A DNA stretch of 64,000 nucleotides from Acidobacteriota bacterium (GCA_016789605.1 JAEUQO010000202.1:421-64420); one strand, 5' to 3'; shown: positions 25,978 to 64,000, counted from the first letter of the stretch. Notes: generated by a model from the letters alone, not told the origin. A program made the numbers and translations.

Positions 25978-27945
25978 GTGCCCAAATCATCTCCGGTCAG
26001 GCAGGCCGATCTGACGGCCATCTTGCGCTGGCGCGCCGCGACACAAGGAAATACGGAGGCTTACACCTATCTTCAGGATGGGGAAGCTGCGGAAGTCAAT
26101 TTGACTTATGCAGAGTTGGATCAGGCTGCCCGGGCCATTGCCGGAACGTTGCAACAACTGGGCGCAAAGGGCGAGCGTGTGTTGTTGCTTTTCCCGCCGG
26201 GGTTGGCATACATCACGGCGTTTTATGGTTGTCTTTATGCCGGAGCCGTCGCCGTTCCCGCCTATCCGCCGCGTCAGAATCGTTCCTTACTGCGTTTGCA
26301 AAGCATCGTCGCCGACGCGCAAGCGTCTTTTGTGTTGACGAGCGCAGCGATTTTGGCGCGCGTTGAGGAATGGCTGCCGCAAAATCCCGACCTGGCCAAA
26401 CTTCAATGGTTGAGCACGGACACGATTGATTCGGCGGCTGCCGCATTTTGGAGCGAGCCGGACATTCGCCCTGAAACACTCGCCTTTTTGCAATACACCT
26501 CTGGTTCGACGGCCTTACCCAAAGGCGTGATGGTGAGTCACGGCAATTTGATGCACAACCAGGAGGTGATACGAACCGCTTGCGCGCATACCGAACAATC
26601 CACCTTTGTCGGCTGGTTGCCGCTGTATCACGACATGGGGTTGATCGGGAATGTAATGCAGCCGCTGTATCTGGGGTCGCGGTGTGTGCTGTTGTCGCCG
26701 GTTGCCTTCTTGCAACGGCCTTTGCGTTGGTTGCAAGCCATTTCACGGTATCGCGGGCAAACCAGCGGCGGGCCAAATTTTGCTTACGAACTGTGTGTGC
26801 GCAAAATCGCGCCAGAAGAACGCGCCCGGTTGGATTTGAGCTCGTGGCGCATCGCCTTTAACGGCGCGGAGCCGGTGCGGCAAGAGACGCTGGCACGTTT
26901 TGCCGCGGCCTTTGCCGATTGCGGATTTCGCCGGGAATCGTTTTACCCCTGTTACGGGCTGGCCGAAGCGACGTTGTTCGTGGCCGGTGGCGCGCCGGGG
27001 CGTTCATTGTCGGCTGTGCGCGTCGCGCGCGAGGCGTTGGCAAAAGGCCGCCTGAGCGCTGCATTGGAAGAGGGGCAGTCGCTGGTGAGTTGTGGGCAAC
27101 CACAACTGGAACAGCAGATTGTCATTGTGAATCCTGATTCACGGCAACGATGCGCGCCCGGCGAAATCGGCGAAATCTGGTTGAGCGGTGGCAGTGTCGC
27201 CGCCGGATATTGGAATCGCCCCGCGGAAACAGAGGCCGTCTTTCGCGCGCGGGTCGCCGGTACTGATGAAGGGCCATTTTTGCGCACGGGTGATCTGGGA
27301 GCCTGGCACGGCGGCGAGCTGTTTGTTACCGGGCGATTGAAAGACCTCATTATCATCCGTGGGCGAAATCATTATCCGCAAGACATCGAATTCACCGTCG
27401 AACGCAGCGATGCCGCGTTGCGTCCGGGCTGCGTTGCGGCGTTTACCCGCGAAACCGAAGCCGGTGAAGAGCAATTGGTGATCGTGCAGGAAGTGGAAAA
27501 TCGTAACCGCCAGCGCGGCGCTGAACTCATCGAAAAGATTCGCGCCGCAGTTGCTGAAGAGCACGAACTATTGCCAGTCGGCGTCGCGCTCATCAAACCC
27601 GGCAGCATTCCCAAAACTTCCAGCGGCAAAATCCAACGGCGCGCTTGCCGGGCAGCTTACCTGCAAGGCGAATTGGAAATTGTGGCGCAATGGCAGGCCG
27701 CGACGTTGCCTCCCGCGACGGAGGACGGTGAACAATCCACCGCGCGTCCGGGAAGCGTGGAAGAGCTGGAAGGTTGGTTGTTGGATCTGACGGCGCGCCG
27801 CATGAATTTGTCGCGGGCGGAGCTTGACGCGCAATTGCCGCTGGCGCGCCATGGCCTGGATTCGTTGGTGCGGTCGAACTGGCGCACGTCATCGAAACTG
27901 AACTGGGACTTTCGCTTTCATCCTTTGAGCCGCTGCAAAGCCTGA
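25978..27945 (+). CDS. Fatty acyl-AMP ligase (FAAL) plus ACP N-half; 5' part of a frameshifted NRPS starter gene
   Basis: AAGGAG RBS before GTG 25978; AFLQYTSGSTALPKGV, WLPLYHDMGLIG, PCYGLAEATL, GRNHYPQDIE, IPKTSSGK; ACP motif HGLDSL, then the frame is lost at ~27868. Confidence 0.9.
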   Translation: MPKSSPVRQADLTAILRWRAATQGNTEAYTYLQDGEAAEVNLTYAELDQAARAIAGTLQQLGAKGERVLLLFPPGLAYITAFYGCLYAGAVAVPAYPPRQNRSLLRLQSIVADAQASFVLTSAAILARVEEWLPQNPDLAKLQWLSTDTIDSAAAAFWSEPDIRPETLAFLQYTSGSTALPKGVMVSHGNLMHNQEVIRTACAHTEQSTFVGWLPLYHDMGLIGNVMQPLYLGSRCVLLSPVAFLQRPLRWLQAISRYRGQTSGGPNFAYELCVRKIAPEERARLDLSSWRIAFNGAEPVRQETLARFAAAFADCGFRRESFYPCYGLAEATLFVAGGAPGRSLSAVRVAREALAKGRLSAALEEGQSLVSCGQPQLEQQIVIVNPDSRQRCAPGEIGEIWLSGGSVAAGYWNRPAETEAVFRARVAGTDEGPFLRTGDLGAWHGGELFVTGRLKDLIIIRGRNHYPQDIEFTVERSDAALRPGCVAAFTRETEAGEEQLVIVQEVENRNRQRGAELIEKIRAAVAEEHELLPVGVALIKPGSIPKTSSGKIQRRACRAAYLQGELEIVAQWQAATLPPATEDGEQSTARPGSVEELEGWLLDLTARRMNLSRAELDAQLPLARHGLDSLVRSNWRTSSKLNWDFRFHPLSRCKA

Positions 27946-27947
27946 CG

Positions 27948-62980: not shown

Positions 62981-63008
62981 GACCGACGCGCACACGCAAC
63001 ATCTGGGC

Positions 63009-64000
63009 ATGCACGATTGGCAAACCATTTTGAATCAACTAACGCCCGCCAAGCGCGCGTTGTTGGCGGCGCGCAACCCGCTTTCGTTTGCGCAACAGCG
63101 GCTTTGGTTTCTGGATCAGCTTGCGCCGGGCCAGGCCGATTACAACATCCCGGCAGCGTTGCGGCTGACCGGCAGGCTGAACGTGCCCGCTCTGGAAGCC
63201 GGTATCAACGAAATCGTCCGCCGCCACGATGCGTTGCGCACAGTGTTTGGCGCGGTGGAAGGGCGACCATTTCAGTTGGCTTTGCCCGCCAAATTGGTTT
63301 CCTTGCCGCTGCACGATTTGCGCAACGTTCCTGAAACCGAGCGTGAGACGCGGCTGGCGTGTTTGCTGAACGAAGCTGCTGGGCGTCCCTTTGATTTAAC
63401 GCGTGGCCCATTGTTCAGCGTGGAATTGTGGCGGCTGGCCGAAACCGAGCATGTGTTGTGGCTGAACTGGCATCACATTATTGCCGATGGTTGGTCGCTG
63501 GAAATTTTCTTTCGCGAATTGGCGATGCTTTATCAAGCCTACCTGCACGGCGCGCCGTCGCCGTTGCCCGAATTGCCGTTGCAATATGGCGATTATGCGC
63601 GCTGGCAACGTCAGGAAGAACAAGGTGAGGCCTGGCAACGCCAGCTTTTGTACTGGAAACGGCAACTTCAAGGAGCGCCCGCCAGCCTGCCTTTGCCGAC
63701 GGAAGGAACGTTCCGGGCACAGCCATCGTCCGCAGGGGCAACTTACCGATTTACGCTGCCGGAGCGGTTGACGGCTGCCTTGCGTGAATTGAGCCAGCGC
63801 GAAAACGTGACGCTGTTTATGACTTTGCTGGCGGCTTTTCAGACGCTGCTTTATCGCCACACGGGCGAAACAGACCTGGTTGTCGGCACGCCACAGACCA
63901 ACCGCAACCGCGTGGAGTTGGAAGGCCTGATCGGGTTTTTCCTCAACACGCTGGTTTTGCGCGGCGATCTGGCGGGCAAACCGACAACGCGAGAGTTATT
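63009..64000 (+). CDS. NRPS starting with a C domain (LCL-like), runs off the right edge
   Basis: Not in the ORF track; translated by hand from ATG 63009: MHDWQTILNQLTPAKRALLAARNPLSFAQQRLWFL..., HHIIADGWS, GLIGFFLNTLV. Confidence 0.9.
   Translation, partial: MHDWQTILNQLTPAKRALLAARNPLSFAQQRLWFLDQLAPGQADYNIPAALRLTGRLNVPALEAGINEIVRRHDALRTVFGAVEGRPFQLALPAKLVSLPLHDLRNVPETERETRLACLLNEAAGRPFDLTRGPLFSVELWRLAETEHVLWLNWHHIIADGWSLEIFFRELAMLYQAYLHGAPSPLPELPLQYGDYARWQRQEEQGEAWQRQLLYWKRQLQGAPASLPLPTEGTFRAQPSSAGATYRFTLPERLTAALRELSQRENVTLFMTLLAAFQTLLYRHTGETDLVVGTPQTNRNRVELEGLIGFFLNTLVLRGDLAGKPTTREL

What the first reader, a model, noticed from the sequence alone, without database searches (positions are those of the whole stretch)
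25978..64000. Unrecognised, heavily tailored lipopeptide NRPS cluster in a probable Acidobacterium
Seen: over 38 kb of co-oriented genes with FAAL-ACP, at least seven A domains, three hydroxylases of two classes, two modAA-like C domains, a GAMT-like MT, AsnB and a radical SAM enzyme. Hand-read codes predict acyl-Thr(dehydro)-Gly-(N-Me, beta-OH)His-Leu-(dehydro or beta-OH)Ile/Val-X-(beta-OH, perhaps methyl)Asp-... Known: single pieces have precedents (BlmVI-like starter architecture, interface-type beta-hydroxylation in siderophores, N-methyl-beta-OH-His in corramycin, dehydro-Val/Ile in myxovalargin). I know no cluster with this combination. Inference: a new antibiotic or metallophore. No TE or end of cluster is visible.
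Basis: partly seen in the sequence, partly recalled or inferred. Interest (0 to 1): 0.9.

Follow-up and report, generated by a model that had tools for sequence, protein, structure and literature searches.

The report
Orphan acidobacterial lipopeptide (metallophore-like) NRPS cluster
A complete, roughly 41-kb gene cluster in a sludge-dwelling Acidobacterium encodes an assembly line for a fatty-acylated eight-residue peptide with hydroxylated, methylated and dehydrated residues, most likely a metal-binding compound, and no product is known for it.

Summary
From window 25978 to 66986 (2986 bases past the window, on the same contig) lie 13 co-oriented genes. They encode FAAL-ACP, eight A domains, ten full C-type domains plus one truncated one, two C-TauD fusions, a CmlA-type diiron hydroxylase, AsnB, a B12 radical-SAM enzyme, a GAMT-like methyltransferase and a terminal TE. 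A type II TE, a PPTase and two ABC-2 permeases follow.

Motif-read codes give acyl-Thr-Gly-His-Leu-(Ile/Val)-X-Asp-Leu. Both modAA-type C domains match McyA and AmbE. The Asp module pair is 49% and 43% identical to the beta-hydroxy-Asp module of the cyanochelin B siderophore cluster, with the same His-less "interface" domain. I therefore read the product as an amphiphilic metallophore (about 0.55) rather than an antibiotic.

New points:
- The His A domain is naturally split after a C-terminal GAMT-like methyltransferase. This arrangement is conserved in more than 130 protein clusters across many phyla.
- The FAAL-ACP/C1 gene carries a 1-nt frameshift, also present in three independent metagenome assemblies.
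- The host is a Blastocatellia member.
- No orthologous cluster was found in the 60 relatives searched.

Each part has a precedent. The combination and the product are unknown.

The parts
22339..25614 (+). TonB-dependent outer-membrane receptor (CarboxypepD_reg + Plug + OMP_b-brl_4), directly upstream and followed by a hairpin. Candidate uptake gene.
   Evidence: Pfam. One of about 65 such genes in the genome, so adjacency is only mild support. Hairpin seen in the sequence.
25978..27945 (+). o1: FAAL plus the first half of an ACP (GLDSL serine). The reading frame is lost after the serine motif.
   Evidence: Pfam AMP-binding and DIP2-like domain. NCBIfam fatty-acyl-AMP ligase models, below their full-length cut-offs. 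Start checked.
27865..27870 (+). 1-nt frameshift inside the ACP. The ACP continues in the o2 frame (AVELAHVIETELGL...LAQLAAQL), so o1 and o2 were once a single FAAL-ACP-C-A-T-C-A gene.
   Evidence: Three-frame reading. Alignment to the intact ACP of the Trichormus variabilis homologue switches frame exactly here. No indel in contigs of 3 DNA runs from 3 studies.
27948..34316 (+). o2: C1 (starter position, HHIAADL)-A1(Thr code)-T1-C2 (CmodAA type, both catalytic His missing: S-E-PLLDG)-A2(Gly code), then a C-terminal docking tail.
   Evidence: The KSLLLAAH motif of CmodAA domains, as defined in PMC11342130 section 8, is seen in the alignment.
34329..34790 (+). o3: stand-alone T2 (carrier for Gly) with an N-terminal docking helix.
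   Evidence: Pfam PP-binding.
34798..37200 (+). o4: C3 (DCL-like, HHLIHDA) fused to a TauD-type Fe/2OG hydroxylase. Proposed His beta-hydroxylase.
   Evidence: Best solved C relative is McyB, 355 bits. 48% identical over 97% of its length to a stand-alone C-TauD of T. variabilis plasmid C.
37203..39107 (+). o5: glutamine-dependent asparagine synthase homologue (AsnB) with the N-terminal Cys. Its role in the pathway is unknown.
   Evidence: TIGR01536 435.9 bits against cut-off 267; MCGIV start.
39131..42826 (+). o6: C4 (interface-type, no HH: SLLVAD)-A3 (His code) up to motif A8, then a linker, then a GAMT-like methyltransferase, then the stop codon.
42847..48204 (+). o7: docking helix, then the rest of A3 (A9-A10, NGKVDR), then T3-C5-A4(Leu code)-T4-C6.
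   Evidence: No indel at the o6/o7 junction in 3 DNA runs.
48214..49836 (+). o8: CmlA-type diiron beta-hydroxylase.
   Evidence: Pfam CmlA_N 305 bits plus MBL fold. 59% identical to a Nostoc flagelliforme gene in the same NRPS|CmlA|NRPS setting.
49833..55478 (+). o9: truncated C' (N lobe only, HRLLLDE)-A5(Ile/Val-like code)-T5-C7 (CmodAA, HHSILDG, KSVLLAAH)-A6(unassigned code DAKNFGLAN)-T6.
55475..57994 (+). o10: C8 (LCL-like, HHIISDG) fused to a TauD-type hydroxylase. Asp beta-hydroxylase.
   Evidence: 49% identical over 95% to the C-TauD end of BAU16013 in the cyanochelin B cluster.
58036..59682 (+). o11: B12-binding radical SAM methyltransferase (named PhpK family). Substrate unknown.
   Evidence: TIGR04479 639 bits against cut-off 600. 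No PEP mutase in the genome. Start.
59702..62980 (+). o12: C9 (interface domain, LTLPALCAD, no HH)-A7(Asp code)-T7.
   Evidence: 43% identical over its full length to BAU16012 (the beta-OH-Asp module of cyanochelin B), which has the same LTLPALCAD motif. Codes compared.
63009..64000 (+). o13, start only. It continues to window-equivalent 66986 as C10-A8(Leu code)-T8-TE. A type II TE, a PPTase and two ABC-2/DUF3526 permeases follow beyond the window.
   Evidence: L001 429-4406, 4733-5506, 5478-6245, 6469-9357.

Best explanation
This is one complete, colinear NRPS biosynthetic gene cluster, about 41 kb and 13 genes, in a Blastocatellia (Acidobacteriota) bacterium that is common in activated sludge.

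Proposed assembly line:
1. FAAL-ACP and the starter C1 put a fatty acyl group on Thr.
2. C2, a CmodAA-type C domain, joins Gly and dehydrates Thr to dehydrobutyrine.
3. His is loaded by a naturally split A domain (o6 plus the head of o7). Its C-terminal GAMT-like methyltransferase methylates the side chain, probably an imidazole nitrogen.
4. The TauD domain fused to C3 hydroxylates the T3-bound His at C-beta, positioned by the His-less interface domain C4.
5. Leu follows.
6. Ile/Val on T5 is beta-hydroxylated by the CmlA-type diiron enzyme, then dehydrated by the CmodAA domain C7 while residue X is added.
7. Asp on T7 is beta-hydroxylated by the TauD domain fused to C8, with interface domain C9.
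8. Leu is added and the TE releases the chain.

Predicted product: acyl-Dhb-Gly-(N-methyl, beta-OH)His-Leu-dehydro(Ile/Val)-X-(beta-OH)Asp-Leu, with all residues L-configured because there is no E domain.

The beta-OH-His and beta-OH-Asp pairs, the lipid tail and the neighbouring TonB-dependent receptor make an amphiphilic metallophore (siderophore-type) the most likely function.

Shown: the domain inventory, order, motifs and homologies.

Inferred: substrate identities, the site of methylation, the two dehydrations, the roles of AsnB and the radical SAM enzyme (unassigned), the release mode, and the biological function.
For: Architecture.

Codes. The Asp code is cross-checked against the cyanochelin B beta-OH-Asp module (DLTKIGHVG against DLTKVGHVG). 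DSALIAEVWK is reported for His, including beta-OH-His, and DFWNIGMVHK for Thr, in PMC12283262 (passages).

Interface and fused hydroxylase: o10 is 49% and o12 is 43% identical to the adjacent cyanochelin B proteins, with the same His-less LTLPALCAD motif. That paper assigns L-threo-beta-OH-Asp to the module behind the NRPS-fused hydroxylase (PMC12628792 passages).

CmodAA: C2 and C7 hit McyA (8jbr) and AmbE (7r9x) as best solved relatives. Both carry the K-S-[VL]-L-L-A-A-H motif described for CmodAA domains (PMC11342130 section 8).

CmlA plus CmodAA: a Nostoc flagelliforme locus has the same order, with a Val code. The cryopeptin paper proposes this route to dehydrovaline (PMC12181424 passages).

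Split A domain:
- There is a stop codon after the MT and an ATG 21 nt later.
- 12 of 17 other loci show the same stop/restart with A9-A10 on the next ORF.
- In 122 of 125 best representatives the MT ends within 15 residues of the protein end.
- A split A domain behind an N-MT works in vitro in corallorazine synthesis (PMC11342130 passages).

MT partner: 82 of 89 readable A domains among the 120 listed hits have a His-like code (31 hits dropped because the anchor motif was not found). 11 of 15 MT-linked A domains in fetched loci are His-like.

Metallophore context:
- A TBDR lies directly upstream.
- A TonB_C protein lies downstream.
- The T. variabilis plasmid C locus has the same head architecture beside an annotated siderophore receptor.

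Selection: 22 synonymous against 18 non-synonymous among the 40 SNPs listed, with no indel or stop.
Against: - Only two obvious bidentate ligand groups are predicted, whereas Fe(III) siderophores usually offer three.
- Residue X (DAKNFGLAN) is unassigned.
- No Fur-box-like site was found. The best match to the E. coli consensus in the whole window is 13 of 19, though the acidobacterial site is unknown.
- No binding-protein-type ABC importer and no reductase is seen.
- The receptor gene family has about 65 members in this genome, and a hairpin separates the receptor from o1.
- The ACP is broken by a 1-nt frameshift shared by three independent assemblies. FAAL-dependent lipidation, or translation of o2, may therefore be impaired.
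- C2 lacks both catalytic His residues, so its chemistry is uncertain.
- beta-OH-Asp also occurs in non-metallophore lipopeptides (PMC12971057 section 20).
- N-methyl-beta-OH-His occurs in the antibiotic corramycin.
- Stachelhaus positions were read by a motif rule recalled from memory. It is validated only because it yields recognisable codes.
Confidence: 0.55

Rival explanations
1. The same assembly line makes a membrane- or target-directed lipopeptide antibiotic (corramycin- or cryopeptin-like) rather than a metallophore. Under this reading the hydroxyl, methyl and dehydro groups serve conformation and target binding.
For: - Corramycin combines a FAAL start, N-methyl-beta-OH-His made by a module with an embedded side-chain MT, beta-OH-Val and a radical SAM methyltransferase (PMC10099666 passages).
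- Dehydro-amino acids are typical of antibiotics such as myxovalargin (listing, passages).
- Only two chelating groups are predicted.
- No Fur-like site was found.
Against: - There is no resistance gene and no prodrug peptidase in the cluster (Pfam).
- There is no PKS, FkbH or E domain, so it is not a corramycin cluster.
- The C-TauD|interface pairs are those of siderophore clusters.
- A receptor lies next door, both here and in T. variabilis.
- The cryopeptins showed no activity in the published screens.
Confidence: 0.27
2. The cluster is decaying or silent. The frameshift in the ACP uncouples FAAL-ACP from C1, leaves o2 with only a TTG start, and no product is made.
For: - A 1-nt frameshift lies exactly after the GLDSL serine.
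- It is shared by contigs of 3 DNA runs from 3 studies, with no indel against the window.
- The start of o9 holds a one-off truncated C domain.
Against: - All other ORFs, up to 2122 codons, are intact.
- Among 40 listed SNPs there is no stop or indel, and 22 are synonymous.
- Small contigs of a metatranscriptome library lie on the cluster at eight listed places. One search warns this does not prove transcription.
- Starter C domains can take acyl-CoA directly. This is general knowledge and was not tested here.
Confidence: 0.12
3. The head of the molecule is not a plain peptide. C2 has lost both catalytic His residues, as the bleomycin-type CmodAA domains have. It would add the Gly amine to the dehydrated Thr side chain (conjugate addition), and AsnB would amidate the freed carboxyl. 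Together with beta-OH-His this would give a bleomycin-like metal-binding head.
For: - C2 reads S-E-PLLDG where McyA and AmbE read H-H-S-[IV]-LDG.
- AsnB lies two genes downstream of C2.
- A beta-OH-His module follows.
- The T. variabilis counterpart also lacks the second His (H-N).
Against: - The Blm-type domains carry Phe and Gly/Ala at these positions, not Ser and Glu.
- There is no second Asn module for a pyrimidine.
- AsnB is absent from the fetched 26-kb T. variabilis locus.
- Three other CmodAA domains in that paper lack the second His without such chemistry being claimed.
Confidence: 0.06

Closest known systems
Cyanochelin B cluster, Leptolyngbya sp. NIES-3755 plasmid 2 (AP017310.1; PMC12628792)
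   Same: - FAAL-primed NRPS siderophore cluster.
- An NRPS ends in C-TauD, and the next protein starts with a His-less C-like (interface) domain followed by A(Asp)-T.
- o10 is 49% and o12 is 43% identical to that pair, with an identical LTLPALCAD motif and a near-identical Asp code.
   Different: - Cyanochelin B has PKS modules, a thiazoline and two beta-OH-Asp residues. It has no His, no MT of this kind, no CmlA and no CmodAA step.
- Here a radical SAM gene sits between the C-TauD gene and the interface-module gene.
Uncharacterised cluster on Trichormus variabilis ATCC 29413 plasmid C (NC_007412.1)
   Same: It has the same head: FAAL-ACP-C-A-T-CmodAA-A | lone T | stand-alone C-TauD | ... | interface-A-T, beside a TonB-dependent siderophore receptor. 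FAAL is 58%, TauD 62% and the whole o4 48% identical.
   Different: - Its residues differ (Ser, His, an unknown, Thr, His...).
- Its MT is a separate, unrelated class I enzyme.
- It has a PhyH dioxygenase.
- No AsnB, CmlA or radical SAM enzyme was found in the 26 kb fetched.
- I found no paper on its product (search).
Corallorazine synthetase Crz1/Crz2 (PMC11342130)
   Same: - An A domain is split between A8 and A9, with an MT at the end of the first protein and A9-A10-T on the next. It was shown to be active only when both parts are present.
- A CmodAA domain sits behind a starter module.
   Different: - Crz has a Gly A domain with an ordinary backbone N-MT.
- Here the A domain is for His and the MT is GAMT-like. 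It belongs to a separate family that is nearly always C-terminal.
Corramycin cluster, Corallococcus coralloides (PMC10099666)
   Same: FAAL start, a His module with an embedded MT proposed to methylate the imidazole, beta-OH-His, beta-OH-Val, and a radical SAM methyltransferase.
   Different: - Corramycin has 12 NRPS-PKS modules with FkbH, PKS and E domains. None of these is here.
- Whether its MT is of the GAMT-like family could not be tested, because no sequence was available to me.
Cryopeptin cluster, Pedobacter cryoconitis (PMC12181424)
   Same: A CmlA-like metallo-beta-lactamase-fold enzyme plus CmodAA domains behind Val modules, in a linear lipopeptide that contains dehydrovaline.
   Different: Cryopeptin is a penta- or heptapeptide of Phe, Dhv, Arg and Leu. 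It has no hydroxylated His or Asp and no MT. The route is proposed there, not proven.

Membership tests
FAAL-primed NRPS lipopeptide cluster | Fatty acyl-AMP ligase with its own carrier protein, directly before a C domain | tested here: inconclusive
   The FAAL is present. The ACP serine motif is present, but the ACP is cut by a 1-nt frameshift. C1 follows in the other frame.
FAAL-primed NRPS lipopeptide cluster | Colinear C-A-T modules ending in a TE, with a PPTase | tested here: met
   Eight A domains, eight T domains, a TE, a type II TE and a PPTase.
FAAL-primed NRPS lipopeptide cluster | C1 belongs to the starter-C clade | tested here: inconclusive
   Its position fits. Its best solved relatives are ordinary C domains (Txo2, 216 bits). 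No C-domain reference tree was available.
beta-OH-Asp/beta-OH-His peptide siderophores with NRPS-fused hydroxylase and interface domain (Reitz et al. 2019; paper not held, abstract recalled) | TauD-type hydroxylase fused behind the last C domain of a protein | tested here: met
   o4 and o10.
beta-OH-Asp/beta-OH-His peptide siderophores with NRPS-fused hydroxylase and interface domain | The next module starts with a C-like domain lacking HHxxxDG, followed by an Asp or His A domain | tested here: met
   C4 reads SLLVAD before the His code. C9 reads PALCAD before the Asp code.
beta-OH-Asp/beta-OH-His peptide siderophores with NRPS-fused hydroxylase and interface domain | Homology to a pair from a siderophore of known structure | tested here: met
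   Met for the Asp pair: 49% and 43% identity to the cyanochelin B proteins. For the His pair there is no characterised comparator; the best match is an uncharacterised T. variabilis protein.
beta-OH-Asp/beta-OH-His peptide siderophores with NRPS-fused hydroxylase and interface domain | Siderophore uptake genes in or beside the cluster | tested here: inconclusive
   A TBDR lies directly upstream and a TonB_C protein downstream. However, there are about 65 TBDR paralogues in the genome, and no binding-protein importer was found.
beta-OH-Asp/beta-OH-His peptide siderophores with NRPS-fused hydroxylase and interface domain | Iron-responsive control | tested here: inconclusive
   No site scores better than 13 of 19 against the E. 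coli Fur consensus. The consensus was recalled, and the acidobacterial site is unknown.
beta-OH-Asp/beta-OH-His peptide siderophores with NRPS-fused hydroxylase and interface domain | Enough ligand groups for hexadentate Fe(III) binding | tested here: not met
   Only beta-OH-His and beta-OH-Asp are predicted. Residue X is unassigned.
CmodAA (dehydrating) condensation domains | Closest to McyA and AmbE, with the [K/R]SVLLAAH motif | tested here: met
   C2: 401 and 210 bits, KSLLLAAH. C7: 435 and 234 bits, KSVLLAAH.
CmodAA (dehydrating) condensation domains | Sits behind a module carrying a beta-hydroxy amino acid | tested here: met
   C2 sits behind Thr. C7 sits behind the module served by the CmlA-type hydroxylase.
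CmodAA (dehydrating) condensation domains | Intact HHxxxDG | tested here: not met
   C7 has HHSILDG. C2 has S-E-PLLDG with a two-residue deletion. The source paper reports such losses in some members.
CmlA-type diiron beta-hydroxylases | CmlA_N domain plus metallo-beta-lactamase fold | tested here: met
   PF18456 305 bits, PF13483 and PF12706. Metal-ligand residues were not checked.
Split or interrupted A domain with MT (corallorazine type) | MT behind A8, then a stop codon, with A9-A10 and T on the next ORF | tested here: met
   No indel in 3 independent assemblies.
Split or interrupted A domain with MT (corallorazine type) | MT of the usual NRPS backbone N-MT family | tested here: not met
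   Its only solved relatives are guanidinoacetate N-methyltransferases (E 7e-18). Local Pfam gives only sub-threshold generic MT hits. The database annotates PF27704.
Corramycin cluster | FkbH loading, PKS module and E domain within 12 modules | tested here: not met
   No such domains were found by Pfam in any of the 13 genes.
PhpK/BcpD P-methyltransferases | Family model above cut-off | tested here: met
   TIGR04479 639 bits against cut-off 600.
PhpK/BcpD P-methyltransferases | Phosphonate pathway (PEP mutase) present | tested here: not met
   PF13714 was not found in the genome, which is 97% complete. The name is therefore a family label, not the function here.

The most novel reading that the evidence does not exclude
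The GAMT-like domain that ends o6 marks a widespread, uncharacterised class of NRPS module. In it, an A domain is always broken after motif A8 by a C-terminal side-chain N-methyltransferase, and its A9-A10 piece is supplied by the next protein. The class is tuned to amidine-type side chains: imidazole of His in most members, and a basic-residue code in a minority. In this cluster it would give an N-methyl-beta-hydroxy-His metal ligand in the first structurally predictable acidobacterial lipopeptide metallophore.
Probability: 0.4. Interest if true: 0.65.

Novelty: new variant of a known kind. Interest (0 to 1): 0.55.

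Why it matters
- Acidobacteria are abundant but almost no non-ribosomal peptide from them has a known structure. In the genome-mining survey I read, only 9 of 836 Acidobacteriota genomes had a detected peptide-metallophore region (PMC12971057).
- This cluster is complete on one contig and gives a testable structure. It belongs to an organism whose DNA recurs nearly unchanged in sludge and wastewater metagenomes of at least eight studies, so material and expression data are within reach.
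- The split His-A/GAMT-like MT unit recurs in more than 130 protein clusters at 50% identity. It would explain how imidazole-methylated His enters peptides, a step the corramycin authors called undescribed.
- The cluster also offers a second natural case for the split-A-domain engineering point found in corallorazine synthesis.

Tried and rejected
1. A frameshift or sequencing error at the o6/o7 boundary: rejected. The stop after the MT and the restart are conserved in 12 of 17 other loci and in 122 of 125 representatives. Three assemblies show no indel. The two apparent fused forms, P0289 and P0292, read the 3' end of the MT in the other frame.

2. The truncated C' of o9 as a conserved docking domain for the CmlA-type enzyme: rejected.
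   - The best non-self match is 36% identical over 57% of the query.
   - All 15 hits examined align to an N lobe. 14 of the 15 carry HHxxxDG nearby.
   - In the 12 of 15 with a following A domain, the distance to the A3 motif is 508-649 residues, against 328 here.
   - The Nostoc locus has a full C domain instead.

3. P-methylation by o11: rejected, because there is no PEP mutase. Plasmid search for o11 gave only 24%-identical hits. The Atlas search gave only same-named clusters.

4. Fur box: nothing better than 13 of 19.

5. Membership in the corramycin cluster family: rejected on domain content.

6. Foreign base composition: GC is 0.56-0.61 across the window with no step at the cluster, so there is no compositional sign of transfer.

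7. The 462-aa ORF beyond the permeases (L001 9577-10965) has no Pfam or NCBIfam hit. The Atlas search gave only beta-propeller-like leads at 0.93.

8. Starter-type assignment of C1 from solved structures: uninformative.

9. RNA: one metatranscriptome library holds small contigs on the cluster. This does not show transcription.

10. Not done: antiSMASH, MIBiG, BiG-FAM, NaPDoS and A-domain predictors (not available); structure prediction, fold search and complex prediction (not needed for the claims made).

11. Papers and tools not available:
   - The Reitz et al. 2019 paper is not held. What I say of it is recalled from its abstract and from passages in papers citing it.
   - Supplements of all papers were closed. 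The cryopeptin, corallorazine and corramycin supplements may hold domain tables that bear on the comparisons.

Full report
**What is there**

The window is positions 421-64420 of an 85,338-base contig of an 8.46-Mb, 491-contig genome. On the + strand, from 25978, runs an unbroken series of co-oriented genes. Their products were scanned with Pfam and mapped domain by domain with tblastn, using the window's own domains as queries. Gene starts and stops were checked.

Gene order:

- **o1 (25978-27945):** FAAL plus half an ACP.
- **o2 (27948-34316):** C1-A1-T1-C2-A2.
- **o3 (34329-34790):** lone T2.
- **o4 (34798-37200):** C3-TauD.
- **o5 (37203-39107):** AsnB.
- **o6 (39131-42826):** C4-A3 core-MT.
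- **o7 (42847-48204):** rest of A3, then T3-C5-A4-T4-C6.
- **o8 (48214-49836):** CmlA-type hydroxylase.
- **o9 (49833-55478):** truncated C'-A5-T5-C7-A6-T6.
- **o10 (55475-57994):** C8-TauD.
- **o11 (58036-59682):** B12 radical SAM enzyme.
- **o12 (59702-62980):** C9-A7-T7.
- **o13 (63009 to window-equivalent 66986):** C10-A8-T8-TE.

Beyond o13 lie a type II thioesterase, a PPTase, two ABC-2/DUF3526 permeases and an unassigned 462-aa ORF. Then, on the other strand, come a glycosyl hydrolase 19-like protein, a TonB_C protein and a sigma-54 activator. Upstream lie a TonB-dependent receptor (22339-25614, + strand) and several MacB/FtsX-type permeases.

**Specificity codes**

I aligned the eight A domains and read the Stachelhaus positions by a motif rule recalled from memory: FDxS, the xPS region, GGE, NxYGPTE plus three and four, and the A10 Lys.

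| A domain | Code | Reading |
|---|---|---|
| A1 | DFWNIGMVH | Thr |
| A2 | DILQLGLIW | Gly |
| A3 | DSALIAEVW | His |
| A4 | DAWFLGHVV | Leu-like |
| A5 | DAFFLGATF | Ile/Val-like |
| A6 | DAKNFGLAN | unassigned |
| A7 | DLTKVGHVG | Asp |
| A8 | DAWFLGNVV | Leu |

- In one later alignment the fourth letter of A8 slipped to A. I keep the reading that matches A4.
- A survey of signature sequences lists DSALIAEVWK for His, including beta-OH-His, and DFWNIGMVHK for Thr. It lists DLTKVGHVGK for Asp, though also for Asn (PMC12283262 passages).
- The Asp reading is backed by the cyanochelin B module, whose code is DLTKIGHVG.
- None of my six codes other than these three was found in print.
- The Lys at position 239 of A6 resembles one published Glu code as I recall it. 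That is a weak lead only.

**Condensation-type domains**

The alignment of all eleven sorts them as follows.

- **C5, C6, C8 and C10** carry HHIISDGWS and look like ordinary L-to-L domains. **C1** has HHIAADL.
- **C3** has HHLIHDA. Its best solved relatives are domains that follow epimerisation domains (McyB 355 bits, PvdL, SrfA-C). Its donor here is achiral Gly.
- **C2 and C7** are sisters. McyA (8jbr) and AmbE (7r9x) are by far their best solved relatives. Both carry the K-S-[VL]-L-L-A-A-H motif that the corallorazine paper describes as particular to dehydrating CmodAA domains.
  - C7 keeps HHSILDG.
  - C2 has a two-residue deletion and reads S-E-PLLDG where McyA and AmbE read HHS[IV]LDG.
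- **C4 and C9** both begin G[YF]RLSPQQRR and have no His pair (SLLVAD, PALCAD). Their solved relatives are only generic.
- **C'** at the head of o9 is the N lobe of a C domain (HRLLLDE), followed almost at once by A5.

**The hydroxylase/interface pairs**

The o10 protein is 49% identical over 95% of its length to the C-TauD end of BAU16013 on Leptolyngbya sp. NIES-3755 plasmid 2. The next protein there, BAU16012, is 43% identical over the full length of o12. It has the same LTLPALCAD motif in its N-terminal C-like domain.

That plasmid carries the cyanochelin B cluster. [quoted passage not shown]

The original description (Reitz et al. 2019) is not held. I rely on its abstract as recalled and on citing papers.

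The o4/o6 pair has the same layout before a His A domain. Its TauD is 47% identical to that of o10. The best outside match of o4 is a stand-alone C-TauD on Trichormus variabilis ATCC 29413 plasmid C (48% over 97%).

That locus has strikingly the same head:

- a TonB-dependent siderophore receptor;
- FAAL-ACP-C-A(Ser code)-T-CmodAA-A(His code);
- a lone T;
- C-TauD;
- a separate, unrelated class I MT;
- a His-less C-like domain with A-T;
- a PhyH dioxygenase;
- C-A(Thr)-T-CmodAA-A(His).

I found no paper on its product.

**The split His A domain and its methyltransferase**

The A3 domain runs through motif A8 in o6. After a linker comes a roughly 210-residue domain whose only solved relatives are guanidinoacetate N-methyltransferases (3orh E 6.7e-18, 1xcj, 1p1b, 1khh). 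The N-terminal E-D-W segment and the LEIGFG SAM motif align. Then comes a TAG.

Twenty-one bases later o7 starts, with an ATG and a docking-type helix (MELHQRIAALSP...). The missing A9-A10 piece (LVAYL...LPAPMQP...LPLTPNGKVDRRAL) and T3 follow.

This is not an error:

- Contigs of three DNA runs from three studies cross the junction without any indel.
- A search of 5.8 billion proteins found 156 relatives. The 120 listed are C-A-MT or A-MT proteins.
- In 12 of 12 sampled, the protein ends 162-163 residues after the SAM motif.
- A full scan of 1.84 billion cluster representatives found 1001 hits at E<=1e-3 and 134 at E<=1e-30.
- In 122 of the best 125, the match ends within 15 residues of the protein's C-terminus. 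95 of those 125 are proteins of 700 residues or more.
- Two of the three exceptions read the end of the MT in the other frame and so run into the next gene.
- In 12 of 17 loci from other genomes, the next ORF starts at or within a few bases of the MT stop and carries the docking helix, A9-A10 and a T domain.

The loci come from Bacteroidota, Verrucomicrobiales, Calditrichaceae, Rhodocyclaceae, Bryobacteraceae, Thermoanaerobaculaceae, Longimicrobiales, Nitrospiraceae, Myxococcota and Gammaproteobacteria.

The partner A domain is His-like in most cases:

- 82 of 89 readable hits have a His-like code. 31 of the 120 listed were dropped because my anchor motif was not found. In multi-module proteins I took the last A domain.
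- 11 of 15 MT-linked A domains in fetched loci are His-like. The other four share a DV[ES]xxG[AS]I[TG] code, which I recall as resembling basic-residue codes.

Two precedents exist:

- Corramycin module 3, where an embedded MT is proposed to methylate the His side chain and was called undescribed (PMC10099666).

I could not test whether the corramycin MT belongs to this family.

**The CmlA/CmodAA step**

The o8 protein has the CmlA_N and MBL domains. Its best annotated relative (59%) lies on a Nostoc flagelliforme plasmid, between two NRPS genes. The downstream NRPS there reads C-A(DALWLGGTF, a Val code)-T-CmodAA-A(Gly).

The cryopeptin paper links a CmlA-like enzyme and CmodAA domains to the dehydrovalines found in the isolated lipopeptides, as a proposal. 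Residue 5 here is therefore most likely dehydro-Ile/Val.

The C' stump is a one-off:

- The best non-self match is 36% identical.
- All 15 hits examined align to an N lobe. 14 of the 15 carry HHxxxDG nearby.
- In the 12 with a following A domain, the distance to the next A3 motif is 508-649 residues, against 328 here.

**Unassigned tailoring**

- **o5** scores as a true glutamine-dependent asparagine synthase (TIGR01536, 436 bits) and keeps the N-terminal Cys.
- **o11** passes the 'PhpK family' model (639 against 600 bits). But the 97%-complete genome has no PEP mutase. Like-named clusters are commonest in Acidobacteriota, Aminicenantota and Myxococcota.

I take o11 for a B12-dependent C-methyltransferase. 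By its position it may act on the Asp module. This is inference only.

**The broken ACP**

After GLDSL the o1 frame runs into 25 unrelated residues and a stop. The rest of a perfect ACP (AVELAHVIETELGL...LAQLAAQL) lies in the o2 frame. Alignment with the intact T. variabilis ACP switches frame exactly there.

Three independent assemblies that differ from the window by SNPs share this state. Either lipidation by the FAAL is impaired, or the population carries a recent lesion.

Against general decay:

- Every other ORF is intact.
- Of the 40 SNPs listed (3 more were not shown), 22 are synonymous and 18 are not. None is a stop.

**Host and spread**

- RpoB is 88-93% identical to proteins of MAGs named Chloracidobacterium sp., Blastocatellia, Blastocatellales and Acidobacteria, and 82% identical to one named Pyrinomonadaceae.
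- Fifteen DNA runs from eight studies (P1-P8), recorded as sludge, wastewater, bioreactor, freshwater or unspecified metagenomes, hold at least 89% of the sampled words of 26000-35000.
- With the MT as query, 4 of 61 genomes (G000 included) had a match. The three others were weak matches in open frames of 162-257 residues.
- In a sample of the phylum, 2 of 401 genomes (G000 included) had the NRPS-type MT.
- With the o10 TauD as query, 7 of 61 genomes (G000 included) matched, at no more than 56% identity.
- The best non-self relative of the o6 MT region is 56% identical.

So no orthologous cluster was found in the genomes searched. These are samples, not proof of absence.

**Function**

For a metallophore:

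- two interface-type hydroxylation modules of the kind used as siderophore markers;
- homology to cyanochelin B;
- the lipid start;
- the receptor next door, here and in T. variabilis;
- a TonB_C protein nearby.

Against:

- only two evident ligand groups;
- no Fur-like site;
- about 65 receptor paralogues in the genome;
- the antibiotic precedents for N-methyl-beta-OH-His and dehydro residues.

I put the metallophore reading at about 0.55, another bioactive lipopeptide at about 0.27, a silent or decaying cluster at about 0.12, and a bleomycin-like head at about 0.06.

**Verdict**

This is a real, complete and orphan NRPS cluster. It is a new combination of published parts in a phylum with few known peptides. 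It also contains a widespread but unstudied split-A-domain/GAMT-like methyltransferase module.

It is a new variant of a known kind, not a new kind of system.

Noticed in passing
window 27865-27870: A 1-nt frameshift cuts the ACP between FAAL and C1. It is present in contigs of three metagenome runs from three studies that differ from the window only by SNPs.
   Followed up: yes
loci L010, L013, L014, L016, L018, L019, L020, L022: In 8 of the 19 fetched loci an A domain with the code DLTKIGEVG (recalled as Asn) lies near the MT-bearing module. This suggests a recurrent small Asn-(methyl)His peptide family in several phyla.
   Followed up: partly
loci L008 (G176), L017, L020, L021: In four loci the GAMT-like MT follows an A domain with a DV[ES]xxG[AS]I[TG] code instead of the His code. 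The MT may there methylate a basic (guanidino or amino) side chain.
   Followed up: partly
window 10546-22201 (- strand) and 16028-19354 (+ strand): Three large MacB_PCD/FtsX duplicated permeases (812, 815 and 897 aa) and a 1108-aa subtilase with DUF11 and HYR repeats lie upstream of the cluster. No ATPase gene was seen beside the permeases.
   Followed up: no
L001 6469-9357 (window-equivalent 69049-71937): Two tandem ABC-2/DUF3526 permease genes follow the PPTase, with no ATP-binding subunit gene nearby.
   Followed up: no
L001 9577-10965 (window-equivalent 72157-73545): A 462-aa ORF with no Pfam or NCBIfam hit. The Atlas search gave only beta-propeller-like (WD40/BNR) leads, at a score of 0.93.
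   Followed up: partly
L015 3860-4093: In a Calditrichaceae contig a small unrelated 78-aa ORF sits between the MT stop and the T domain, unlike the tight stop/restart seen elsewhere.
   Followed up: no
window 5203-7825 (- strand): A DUF790 gene lies next to an XPB/ResIII-type helicase gene, far upstream of the cluster.
   Followed up: no
window 25795-25840: An imperfect inverted repeat (CATTGCA...TGCAAATG) lies about 150 bases before the o1 start. It is a possible regulator site.
   Followed up: no
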